A stretch of DNA of 64,000 nucleotides from Octopus vulgaris (Eukaryota): the NCBI GenBank assembly GCA_951406725.2, contig OX597819.1, positions 100,998,001 to 101,062,000 on the forward strand, in the 5' to 3' direction. This document shows positions 4,966 through 57,760 of the stretch, one piece after another. The translations under genes were made by a program, and so were the position numbers. Below the pieces are notes generated by a model, which was not told the origin of the DNA, did no database searches, and saw only the letters and a list, made by a program, of their open reading frames with translations. Every line of letters begins with the position of its first letter. The first letter of the stretch is position 1.

Positions 4966-5880
4966 TTTTTTTTTCACTTTATCAGTTTCAGCTGGAAGCT
5001 GTGGCCGTGCTGGGGTAACCAGCTTTTTTTACACTGTTAATATTGAGAGCCTGATACGTGGCATTTGGTGAGTAAGGGACTTTGACGTTGCTACCCTCAT
5101 TTGCGCCTCCTGCTGAGAGGTAGATTCATCTGAGACTCTAGACAGAAAGAGATCCAGTTTTGATTTGAAAACATCTACATCCACTCAGGCTCTTTGGGCC
5201 GCTGAAACCCGTTCACTTGCAGTAACTAGTCCTGAAGCGCAACGGCATTGCTGGGATTTTTGGCACTGTGCAGTGTCGACCTGTCCTTGAATCTGTGTAG
5301 CTTTCTATGACAAAATTTGGCACAATATCTTCCAGGACCTTTCGGATGTATATTATTGCATATCTCTCTCGTCTTCCCTCCAGGAAGTAGAGTATTAGCT
5401 GTTTCAACCTTTCCCAGTAGCTGAGCTGTTGCAATGAAACGGTCTTCTTTGTGAAGATTCGCTGAATTGCTTCAAGGTCCGCTGTAAATTTTACATTGTG
5501 GGGTGACCATAGCTGGGAGCAGTAGTCTAAGCGGCTGACGGCGAATGTCCTCCAGTGGATCATCATGGTTCTGAAGGTTCTCAGGACCCAACCAACCAGC
5601 TGTCTGTATTTTGACACCATCTTAGTAATGTGCACTTGGAAAGTGGTGCCATCATACATGTCGATCCTCAGGTCCCACATTGATTTAGATTCTGGGATTG
5701 TAATCCCCCGTGGGCCAGAGTATCCTGTAAGTTCTACGTTCAATTTTGGTTGCTGGTAGCGCAGGGCTTCGAACTTTCCAACATTAAACTGCATATTATT
5801 ATCCTCAGCCCATCTGTAAATTCAGTCCAACTCCAGCTGCAGTAACGCAACGCCGGTAGGGTTTTGTATTTCTGCGAAAC
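4966..5880 (-). pseudogene. 5'-truncated CR1-group LINE: RT thumb/C-terminus plus 3' tail
   Basis: ORF 5213-5794 (MQFNVGKF...RLDYCSQLWSP...LEAIQR...LSYWERLKQL...RRER), then FKSKLDLFLSRV in another frame and a short 3' UTR ending in an A-run. Confidence 0.85.
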
Positions 5881-15007: not shown

Positions 15008-15058
<51 letters not shown>

Positions 15059-15095
15059 GAATGGAGTTGAACGACGAATTAACAAAATTCCTTTA

Positions 15096-15178
15096 TTTTC
15101 GAAATATGTTTCGAAGGCTGCATATTCCTAATTGCGAAGGAATGAGGAGTACATTATGCCGCTTTCTCATCAGGAAAA
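15096..15178 (-). ncRNA. Hammerhead motif, left-arm copy with stem III mismatch
   Basis: ttttc-CTGATGA-gaaagcggcata...tatgcagccttc-GAAA-catatt-TC-gaaaa. Confidence 0.7.
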
Positions 15179-15570
15179 GCAAGGAACTTATGTCAACATC
15201 AAAATGCACAAAAAACTTTTAGATGATTCCTCACACGGAGCCCATAGCGATAATGTGTGTCTCTTTAAAATATTCCTTTATAAGGAGTGACGTCAAAATA
15301 GTTGGATGTAGAAGATTCTAGAAGGTTCTAAAGGTTCAAGGGTTCAAACGAAGTTGGAGGAGAGAGGCATAAGAATAGGAAGGTGAAAGGGTGCAGGTCA
15401 TATGAACCCTTGAACCTTTAGAACCTTCTAGAATCTTCTACATCCAACCATTTTGACGTCACTCCTTCTAAAGGAATATTTTAAAGCGACACTCATTATC
15501 GCTATGGGCTCCGTGTGAACAATCATCTAAAAGTCTTTTGTGCATTTAAATGTTGACATAAGTTCCTTGC

Positions 15571-15653
15571 TTTTCCTGATGAGAAAGTGGCATAATGTAC
15601 TCCTCATTCCTTCGCAATTAGGAATATGCTGCCTTCGAAACATATGTCGAAAA
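15571..15653 (+). ncRNA. Type I hammerhead ribozyme with canonical core
   Basis: ttttc-CTGATGA-gaaagtggcata...tatgctgccttc-GAAA-catatg-TC-gaaaa; palindromic stem III ACATATGT; GUC site at 15646-15648. Confidence 0.85.
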
Positions 15654-16494
15654 TAAAGGAATTTTGTTAATTCGTCGTTCAACTCCATTCTTTCATATAC
15701 TTATATTTTTAAAATAAACATACAAATTTCCACACGAAAGCACGTAATCTATGCCCTAGGCGCGTAACTTCAACCGTGAGTTGATGTGAATTTGCTACCC
15801 AGGTATCGGTTAATTCGAATTATCCATAATAAGATAATTCATTCAACTACTCAAATATATATATATTATATATGTATGGGGTAATAATAGCTGTTTAGAA
15901 TTCCCTATATATATCATCTCTGTATACACGCACACACGCACGCATACGAAAAAATATATATGTAGATATATATAAGATTGTTCTACCTAAATTACTCCTT
16001 GGCATGTATTCAAGCATCCCAATTTTTATTTTCCTAGCAGAGTCCTATCAATACCATTTTTCTCTATTGTTTACACATCTGATCTATGCAATATTACTTG
16101 TTTTTTAAACATAGTGTGACCGCTTTATTTTTTTTTTCCTTTCTAATGGATATATGTTCCAGAATATATATTCCAAACGCTTCTAATATCAGCAACTGTT
16201 TAAGGCCGTTCGTCAATCTTCGGTGAAATAGTTCAATTCGCAATGATTGTGTTACTAAGACGTAGACTTACACAACACGAGATGTGTATGCAATGTTTTG
16301 ACCCTTCAAGGCCTTTGAGCCTTGAAGTCTTGTACCATACTTTGTATTTTTGAGGCTCAAGACTTTACATACATCCTTCGTATATATCATAACTTGATAT
16401 TGTGTGAACTGAGATCCGTGTTGGCAGGTCGCTTATATCAAATATAATGATTAATGTTAAACAATAATAGATTGCATAGTATGCAAACTAGTAG

Positions 16495-27260: not shown

Positions 27261-28245
27261 TTTTAGCTATTTATTACGTCTGATCTTCCTTGTCCAGAGT
27301 CTTTTGTTATCGTGAATAAAACAGTACAGCCCGATCTGTTTGTTTTCATTGCTGATAATAAGGTATTCCAAGTTGTTATCTTGAGAAACGAAAAAGACCG
27401 AAACATAGAAATGCTACCCCTTATATGTCTGTGTTTGTATGTATGCTTTGTGTGTGTACGCTTGTTTGTGTGAGTGTATGCTTGTATTAGATTGTGTGTA
27501 TGCGTACTTAAATAGAACAAGAAAGAGATTAAAAGCAAAGGAGCCTGAAAGCAAGAGTCAGAAATGTACATATGTTTACGCATGTATATGTTTCTTTAAG
27601 CACAAGCTGCATGTATAAATATACGTATGTTTGTTATAGTGTCTACCATCAACGCTCCAACGTTGAGCAGACATCCTGACACGAAACATCAAGAACATTA
27701 CCATTATAGCTAACGTTGATAACAACTCTGAAACAAGAAGATGAAGAGCACTATTACACACTAAGAAACAAAACTGTATTTACTCTAAACAAGTTCAGTA
27801 GCACAACTATATTCATCGTAAATGGTAAATCTGAAAGTAACTGGACTAAAGTTGTATTAAGTTATCATGTAACGTTTTGTTATCTTTATGTCGATGCATT
27901 TCTTCCTAGATTTCTGTGTCATAAGCATTAAATTTTATATAACCCCCCATTAAGCTATCATTTATCAAGCAGATGGGATTTCAAAACTTCTTAATATTTA
28001 CTTTGAATGAATCCGTTTGTCTGTAAAAACAAATATGAATATCTACTGAGAAGTTGCCACCTTTTGATAAAGTGGTAAATCTCGAGAAGAAGACAAATCT
28101 GATATTTTGGGATTAACTCTTCATCAGTGAAAAATCTTTTCATATTGGGTAAAATATTTTTCTGTTTGATGACGTGTCAGCTCCCGAAACGTCGAATTCC
28201 TATTATCACAATGCATTACAAATTTATCCTATGATCGTATACGCA

Positions 28246-57417: not shown

Positions 57418-57645
57418 ATCAATCTATATGTATGTATGCATGAATATATGTATGTATGCATGAATGGATATATATATATATAGTTATATATATATATATA
57501 TATATTACGGAGATGTACTCGCATAGCAAGTAATTTGATCTGAGATCGTGTGCTGAAACGAAAACAATTGCAGCGTGGGAGGTGTTTATAAGCCATTTAA
57601 GAAACACACAAAAGCCGTTCGATTCACTCCAACATTTAAGTTTAA

Positions 57646-57695
57646 TTTGTCAAAATATTTTCGTCGCTAAAATCCGCGACCTGTTCACTGACAAA
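57646..57695 (-). ncRNA. Hammerhead motif with G3-C8 swapped core
   Basis: tttgtca-GTGAACA-g-gtcgc ggatttta gcgac-GAAA-atat-TT-tgacaaa; 7-bp stem I, 5-bp stem II, palindromic AATATT. Confidence 0.65.
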
Positions 57696-57706
57696 GTCCG
57701 TGCTGC

Positions 57707-57760
<54 letters not shown>

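What the first reader, a model, noticed from the sequence alone, without database searches (positions are those of the whole stretch)
57505..57706. Hammerhead with reciprocal G3-C8 swap and UUU cleavage triplet
Seen: in a 200-bp insert flanked by (TA)n, the minus strand reads GUGAACA in place of CUGANGA. Stem I is a perfect 7 bp, stem II is 5 bp, followed by GAAA and AAUAUU. Two reciprocal transversions at the two tertiary-paired positions are unlikely as decay and imply selection on the fold. CUGANGA-based searches would miss this variant.
Basis: partly seen in the sequence, partly recalled or inferred. Interest (0 to 1): 0.75.

Follow-up and report, generated by a model that had tools for sequence, protein, structure and literature searches.

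The report
Swapped-core hammerhead in Penelope jumping gene
This 200-base insert is the start of an abundant Penelope-type jumping gene and carries a hammerhead RNA motif whose paired core letters are naturally swapped (G3-C8); related elements keep that pair in other ways, so it is likely still a slow self-cutting RNA, though cutting is untested.

Summary
The insert is a short copy of a Penelope-like retroelement (RT plus C-terminal GIY-YIG; at least 10,900 pattern matches; host likely an octopus). It runs from the inferred transcription start through a minimal type I hammerhead into the first 30 codons of the ORF.

G3-C8 is the family's master state, in the youngest and the oldest subfamily sampled and in three other organisms. 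In 12 related Penelope hammerheads, positions 3 and 8 always pair (C-G 8, U-A 3, G-C 1), and the G-C family is sister to C-G families. This supports selection on the fold.

The UUU triplet is not new: 24 of 56 published Penelope hammerheads have U17, and one has UUU.

Against a strict need for cleavage:
- 0 of 83 copies begin at the cut site; many begin at a cap-marked start upstream.
- A pair-broken G3·G8 sub-lineage was copied.

No natural G3-C8 was found in searchable papers, but five key papers were unreadable. This scan noted the same motif at another place in this genome.

The parts
57505..57708 (-). Short solo copy of a young Penelope-like element (family A): pLTR from near the inferred transcription start to the outer reverse-transcription start ('tail' end)
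   Evidence: 40 of 40 scored genome candidates are 100% identical over 202 bp; 14 of 30 fetched loci continue upstream into a shared 3' UTR and RT-EN ORF
57689..57695 (-). Hammerhead stem I, 5' strand
57681..57688 (-). Catalytic core G3-U4-G5-A6-A7-C8-A9 plus the extra nucleotide (G) between 9 and 10.1
   Evidence: alignment with 11 related motifs; 3-8 pair counts
57663..57680 (-). Stem II (5 bp, G10.1-C11.1) with an 8-nt loop; the loop varies between subfamilies
57653..57662 (-). G12-A13-A14-A15.1, palindromic helix III (AAUAUU) and U17; predicted cut between 57653 and 57652
   Evidence: sequence; cut position inferred from hammerhead numbering, untested
57646..57652 (-). Hammerhead stem I, 3' strand
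   Evidence: an A-to-G variant (8 of 70 arms) keeps the pair as U·G
57507..57596 (-). First 30 codons of the element's ORF (MAYKHL...)
   Evidence: in frame with the RT-EN ORF in full-length copies L322 and L324/L363
57505..57563 (-). About 57-nt 'tail' between the inner and outer 3' end points of copies (inferred two RT start sites)
   Evidence: 3' ends of 83 arms: 48 at offsets 193-202, 34 at 138-147, 1 other
57469..57504 (.). (TA)n target, left side
   Evidence: 27 of 30 copies have (TA)n at this end
57710..57760 (.). (TA)n target, right side

Best explanation
The insert is a short copy of a Penelope-like retroelement whose 5' leader holds a minimal type I hammerhead with a natural, family-wide G3-C8 pair, likely a slow ribozyme that would cut after U17 only as a dimer or with help from the element's protein. 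Shown: element identity, anatomy, master state, pairing across families, two same-strand hammerheads 4,261 nt apart in a full-length copy, and the end points of copies. Inferred: transcription starts at a capped A about 24 nt before G3. The RT starts at one of two sites just inside the ORF and copies back; starting in the first pLTR gives 145-bp or 202-bp copies like this one, inserted into (TA)n. The templates were uncut. A cut at the first hammerhead would remove the capped first 59 or so nt; a cut at the second would separate the RT start sites from the ORF body. Cleavage therefore likely acts as a slow timer that removes RNAs from the template pool, not as a step needed for insertion. The swap likely arose once from C3-G8, and U17 likely tolerated it because C17 would pair with G3.
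For: Element: RT motif YVDD, CX3CxxC linker and GIY-YIG; tandem and inverted copies. Master state: G3 with C8 in 93 of 100 listed of 6,424 matches, 98 of 100 listed of 1,945 young matches, 91 of 100 listed of 2,768 older matches, and 15 of 18 parsed (30 fetched) of the oldest subfamily sampled, 84% identical to the young one, with no G8. No differences of 3% or more at 57676-57695 in contigs of four organisms. Covariation: 12 of 12 related motifs pair at 3-8 (CG 8, UA 3, GC 1); stem II 100% paired; 0 of 500 shuffles as high. Family A is sister to the C-G families B and C (100/99), with C-G and U-A outgroups. Subfamily changes avoid structured positions (0 of 42 against 15 of 141, p = 0.017). 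Engineered C3G/G8C partly restores cleavage in a Penelope hammerhead, which was protein-assisted and not needed for insertion (PMC11167929). Start site: untemplated G before the start in 23 of 39 junctions against 10% background; 36 of 83 arms start there and 0 of 83 within 2 nt of the cut site. Predicted 3-17 mispairing is 0.98 with C17 and 0.66 with U17; a G3-C8 variant was less active with C17 than with G17 (PMC3884650, data not shown there).
Against: No cleavage data. No copy begins at the cut site, which also fits a dead ribozyme. G3·G8 copies are 121 of 2,768 older matches (4.4%), against 31 A8 and a neutral C-to-G rate of 0.15%. They include a sub-lineage with independent insertion sites and G8 in both arms of inverted pairs, so a broken pair did not stop mobilisation. 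The monomer is predicted to extend stem I by a G3·U17 wobble, and the active dimer is about 2 kcal/mol less stable than two monomers. The covariation count is not corrected for relatedness. Families C and D were retrieved with patterns that excluded G3 and C8, and three motifs (family C, L220, L221) failed the automated descriptor. The p = 0.017 depends on the 13% threshold.
Confidence: 0.68

Rival explanations
1. The hammerhead fold is kept as a structure (a binding site for the RT-EN protein, or a control of translation or folding of the 5' leader) but no longer cuts at a meaningful rate.
For: Copies come from uncut RNA. G3·G8 sources were copied. The other active family, B, has C9 in place of A9. 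Cleavage-dead mutants insert normally in vitro and no cut ends were seen in RNA-seq for the anole element. Penelope clades without hammerheads proliferate.
Against: The 3-8 pair forms in the catalytically active conformation (established knowledge, recalled), so keeping it through double changes fits catalysis best. G5, A6, G12, A13 and A14 are invariant in all 12 motifs.
Confidence: 0.24
2. The swap is a neutral accident: the pair broke in a successful master, hitchhiked, and the second change restored pairing by chance.
For: Masters can carry broken cores (G3·G8 sub-lineage). There is only one G-C origin in the tree, and the whole 202 bp is well conserved, not just the core.
Against: All 12 motifs pair, with U-A in three separate contigs. 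G3-C8 lasted from the oldest sampled subfamily to the youngest and across four organisms. No C3-G8 or G3·G8 ancestral subfamily was found.
Confidence: 0.07
3. Chance resemblance of a hairpin in a repeat to a hammerhead.
For: No Rfam hammerhead match.
Against: Homologous position after the EN-coding end and before the ORF start in related elements that have canonical cores; compensatory changes in both stems; 1 of 60 shuffles.
Confidence: 0.01

Closest known systems
Minimal type I hammerheads in pLTRs of metazoan Penelope-like elements (Cervera and de la Pena 2014, PMC4209133)
   Same: pLTR location, extra nucleotide between 9 and 10.1, G10.1-C11.1, palindromic short helix III, H17 often U (24 of 56 listed; UUU in Crassostrea), mostly solo dispersed copies, predicted dimer cleavage.
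   Different: G3-C8. The 56 listed motifs have C3-G8 (53), U3-A8 (2) or U3·G8 (1), none G3-C8. The extra nucleotide is G here; their consensus is H, with G in 1 of 56.
Natural U3-A8 hammerheads (Perreault 2011, PMC3088659; Schistosoma Cercyon elements, PMC4209133)
   Same: Natural covariation of the 3-8 pair.
   Different: U-A needs two transitions; G-C needs two transversions and reverses the purine and pyrimidine.
Poseidon element of Anolis, PAc (Frangieh 2024, PMC11167929)
   Same: Hammerhead at the pLTR-ORF junction, two internal RT start sites defining a tail, AT-rich targets, uncut RNA as template; the engineered C3G/G8C double mutant partly cuts.
   Different: There G3-C8 is a laboratory rescue and the ORF starts inside stem II. 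Here it is the wild type, the ATG lies 57 nt after the cut site, the tail is about 57 nt rather than 30-40, and the protein has a Cys linker.
Neptune/Nematis clades of EN+ Penelope-like elements (Craig 2021, bioRxiv 10.1101/2021.04.23.441226)
   Same: RT then C-terminal GIY-YIG, CX2-5CxxC linker, inverted 5'-truncated copies, microsatellite insertion.
   Different: The clade was not placed against named reference sequences here.

Membership tests
Minimal type I hammerhead of Penelope-like elements | Stems I and II around the core, open at stem I, G10.1-C11.1 | tested here: met
Minimal type I hammerhead of Penelope-like elements | Literal core consensus CUGANGA | tested here: not met
   GUGAACA; no Rfam match
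Minimal type I hammerhead of Penelope-like elements | Watson-Crick pair between 3 and 8; U4, G5, A6, A9, G12, A13, A14, A15.1-U16.1, H17 | tested here: met
Minimal type I hammerhead of Penelope-like elements | Extra nucleotide after position 9 and palindromic helix III | tested here: met
   G at 57681; AAUAUU; compare
Minimal type I hammerhead of Penelope-like elements | Present in both pLTRs of a full-length element | tested here: met
   L363: two same-strand copies 4,261 nt apart flanking the ORF
Minimal type I hammerhead of Penelope-like elements | Self-cleavage after H17 (as a dimer or protein-assisted) | not testable with these tools
   No raw RNA reads were available; copy ends show uncut templates
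EN+ Penelope-like element | Single ORF with RT and C-terminal GIY-YIG endonuclease | tested here: met
   GIY-YIG E = 2.6e-06, above the Pfam cut-off; YVDD motif; RVT_1 only weak and only in the sister family
EN+ Penelope-like element | pLTRs, tandem and inverted 5'-truncated copies, optional tail | tested here: met
Neptune/Nematis clades | CX2-5CxxC linker before the endonuclease | tested here: met
   CX3CxxC in P0001; definition
Neptune/Nematis clades | Phylogenetic placement with named clade members | not tested
   No named reference proteins were among the tool results
Non-LTR retrozyme | Tandem non-coding repeats each with a type I hammerhead | tested here: not met
   Solo copy that includes the ORF start and is dispersed in the genome

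The most novel reading that the evidence does not exclude
This is the first natural, long-lived G3-C8 hammerhead, completing a three-state (C-G, U-A, G-C) covariation of the catalytic 3-8 pair within one retroelement clade. Penelope hammerheads are tuned to be slow: the two most recently active families in this genome both carry weakening core changes (G3-C8 with U17; C9), because only uncut, capped RNA is copied. The ribozyme is then a self-limiting timer on the template rather than a processing step, and thousands of cap-marked copies record this.
Probability: 0.3. Interest if true: 0.72.

Novelty: new variant of a known kind. Interest (0 to 1): 0.5.

Why it matters
The in vivo role of Penelope hammerheads is described as still a mystery (PMC7761336). 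A natural G3-C8 core kept by a family with over 10,000 pattern matches would show in nature what was known from engineered rescue. It also means consensus-based and Rfam searches miss a whole abundant family, so some reports of 'no hammerhead' in these elements may be artefacts of the descriptor. The family offers ready-made controls (G3-C8, natural G3·G8, and sister C3-G8 with A9 or C9) and a genomic record of which RNA ends were copied, so the question of whether cleavage helps or limits transposition becomes directly testable.

Tried and rejected
- Rfam on the whole window gave only sub-threshold microRNA hits on microsatellites, and nothing for the motif.
- Pfam on the 487-aa piece found nothing; the longer ORF gave GIY-YIG.
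- SINE or MITE reading: rejected, since the sequence continues into an RT-EN ORF on both sides in longer copies.
- G3·G8 as the ancestral intermediate: not supported. The oldest subfamily sampled has no G8, G8 and C8 copies share haplotypes and age, and a small DNA tree did not resolve the order.
- G3·G8 copies on contig C16 as a segmental duplication: rejected, since their 3' flanks differ.
- 5' ends set by cleavage: 0 of 83.
- Expression: no RNA holder listed. The runs are contigs and cannot show RNA ends; whether RNA bridges the pLTR-ORF junction stays open.
- Metagenome relatives: 16 loci, 9 with a 3' flank examined; the descriptor found a motif in 5, two more were read by eye, and two had none or too little flank.
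- The first alignment of motifs was misregistered, and one pair count used a wrong column for stem II; both were redone.
- Literature searches for a natural G3-C8 found none. Lunse 2017, Przybilski and Hammann 2007, Hammann 2012, Arkhipova 2017 and Martick and Scott 2006 are not held, nor is file 1 of the Cervera supplement, and any of them may report it.

Full report
1. Observation. The minus strand at 57695-57646 has the anatomy described: 7-bp stem I, core GUGAACA with G3 at 57688 and C8 at 57683, one extra G, 5-bp stem II, GAAA, the palindrome AAUAUU and U17. (TA)n lies on both sides. A descriptor with positions 3 and 8 free finds only this site in the window and a hit in 1 of 60 block shuffles. 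The motif folds with z = -3.3, but the predicted monomer extends stem I by a G3·U17 wobble. Rfam has no hammerhead match even at E <= 10.

2. What the insert is. All 40 scored genome candidates (of 1,388) were 100% identical over 202 bp, and a downstream 21-mer has 10,936 matches. Of 30 fetched copies, 14 continue upstream into a shared 3' UTR and 27 end in (TA)n. The upstream ORF encodes an RT (YVDD), a CX3CxxC linker and a GIY-YIG endonuclease. Copies often carry an inverted 5'-truncated arm. In full-length copies the sequence continues downstream in frame: bases 57596-57507 are the first 30 codons. L363 has two same-strand hammerheads 4,261 nt apart around the ORF. This is a Penelope-like element of Neptune/Nematis type by its linker (clade not placed by tree). 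The best named protein hit is from Octopus vulgaris, so the host is likely an octopus.

3. The swap is the master state. G3 with C8 occurs in 93 of 100 listed of 6,424 matches, 98 of 100 listed of 1,945 young-loop matches and 91 of 100 listed of 2,768 older-loop matches. In the oldest subfamily sampled (84% identical to the young one), 18 of 30 loci could be parsed: 15 G3-C8, 2 A3-C8, 1 G3-U8, none G8. Contigs from four coded organisms show no difference of 3% or more at 57676-57695, though depth there is lower than downstream. No family A copy with both C3 and G8 appeared in these lists.

4. Evidence for selection on the pair. Conservation among copies is weak evidence, since they share masters and the flanks are about as conserved. 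Subfamily-defining changes do avoid structured positions (0 of 42 against 15 of 141, p = 0.017 at a 13% threshold with CpG sites left out). Independent families are stronger evidence. Three other families in this genome have homologous motifs with C3-G8; B was found through its protein, C and D through patterns that excluded G3 and C8. Among 9 metagenome relatives with a 3' flank, an automated descriptor found 5 motifs (2 C-G, 3 U-A) and two more C-G motifs were read by eye. In the 12-row alignment the 3-8 pair is Watson-Crick in all rows (CG 8, UA 3, GC 1), stem II is fully paired, and 0 of 500 shuffles reach the scores; relatedness is not corrected. On an RT-EN tree of 17 rows, family A (100/100) is sister to B and C (100/99), with C-G and U-A outgroups (family D left out, too short). 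G3-C8 is therefore most simply one derived double change.

5. Evidence against a strict need for the pair or for cleavage. G3·G8 makes up 121 of 2,768 older matches, against 31 for A8, although elsewhere in the element C-to-G runs at 0.15% and C-to-A at 1.4%. Of the 100 listed, 31 lie on contig C16 and 26 share one loop haplotype. Those checked have separate insertion sites, and five have G8 in both inverted arms, so a pair-broken source was copied. The other G8 copies sit on the same mix of haplotypes and have the same age as C8 copies; this excess is unexplained. The young, intact family B has C9 instead of A9, a change expected to slow cleavage (recalled, not from a call).

6. What the copy ends show. 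In 83 arms chosen by a downstream anchor (70 of the first 100 listed sites, all on contig C1), 3' ends fall at two points about 57 nt apart (48 and 34 arms), as expected for two internal RT start sites (compare PMC11167929). 5' ends cluster just upstream of the hammerhead (36 of 83), only 1 extends further, and none begins within 2 nt of the predicted cut. At junctions that begin at the AGAT start, the preceding base is an untemplated G in 23 of 39 (17 of 28 with flanks not derived from the element), against 10% background. Such a G is attributed to copying of the cap in L1 insertions (PMC9341517). I infer a capped start about 24 nt before G3 and uncut templates. The window's copy begins two bases into that transcript. 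Inversion junctions affect some arms, and cut RNA may simply be degraded, so this does not show absence of cleavage.

7. Mechanism. Likely a slow ribozyme needing a dimer (the palindrome gives a 6-bp intermolecular helix III; the active dimer is predicted about 2 kcal/mol less stable than two monomers) or the element's protein, as for the anole element. Cleavage at either pLTR would spoil the RNA as a template, so I favour a timer or self-limiting role over a required processing step. U17 likely made G3 tolerable: predicted 3-17 pairing is 0.98 with C17, 0.66 with U17 and 0 with A17, in line with a remark in PMC3884650. These steps are inferred. Confidence that the motif still cuts and is kept for that: about 0.68.

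8. Comparison with the literature. Minimal Penelope hammerheads, the extra nucleotide, the palindrome and natural U3-A8 are published (PMC4209133; PMC3088659). In the 56 motifs of the Cervera supplement I counted by hand 53 C3-G8, 2 U3-A8, 1 U3·G8, no G3-C8, 24 with U17, and UUU in Crassostrea. G3-C8 appears only as an engineered partial rescue in what I could read. Six searches found no natural case.

What I saw of each paper: PMC11167929, parts 1-3 of 4 of the text; PMC4209133, parts 1-2 of 4 plus supplement file 2, parts 1-2 of 3; PMC3088659, passages and section 8; bioRxiv 10.64898/2026.07.22.740005, part 1 of 5; passages only of bioRxiv 10.1101/2021.04.23.441226, PMC3884650, PMC8495972, PMC6765202, PMC6155905, PMC9341517 and PMC7761336; PMC11014351, term search with no hit. 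Lunse 2017, Przybilski and Hammann 2007, Hammann 2012, Arkhipova 2017 and Martick and Scott 2006 could not be read, so priority is uncertain.

9. Verdict. A real, old and stable core variant of a known ribozyme class in a known kind of element. The variant is probably unreported, its activity is untested, and the UUU triplet is ordinary. Interest 0.5.

Noticed in passing
window 15050-15750: An inverted pair with a hammerhead-like motif in each arm (core CUGAUGA at 15173 on minus and 15576 on plus, long stem II, GAAA); likely a fragment of another Penelope-like family.
   Followed up: partly
window 28166-28193 (+): A decayed hammerhead-like motif (UUGAUGA ... GAAA, CG, UC), resembling a canonical-core repeat family seen in L090 and L331.
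   Followed up: no
L077, L342, L365 (family B): A second young Penelope family with many open frames of about 1,310 aa and tandem copies; its hammerhead has C9 in young copies and A9 in older ones, and U17 in the youngest.
   Followed up: partly
L220:4967-5015: A related element's hammerhead appears to have the 15.1-16.1 pair reversed (U-A) with a palindromic helix III and U17, another core swap in this clade; read by eye from one contig.
   Followed up: partly
L261-L274, L351-L362 (G000 contig C16): A G3·G8 sub-lineage with separate insertion sites concentrated on one contig; C8G is about 30-fold above the neutral rate genome-wide. Unexplained.
   Followed up: partly
5' junctions of family A copies, e.g. 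L004, L010, L015, L284: Untemplated G before the start in 23 of 39 junctions, likely a copied cap marking the transcription start.
   Followed up: yes
L264, L083: Inverted pairs whose two arms belong to different subfamilies (different loop II), suggesting template switching between different RNAs or gene conversion.
   Followed up: no
L078:803 (-), L079:8853 (-): Another repeat with a canonical-core hammerhead, a 7-bp stem II with a long loop and a palindromic helix III.
   Followed up: no
window 5215-5821 (-): A 202-aa open frame that looks like the C-terminal part of a LINE reverse transcriptase (resemblance recalled, not tested).
   Followed up: no
whole window: The 150 listed Rfam matches (of 232) are sub-threshold microRNA hits on (TA)/(CA) microsatellites and should be ignored.
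   Followed up: yes
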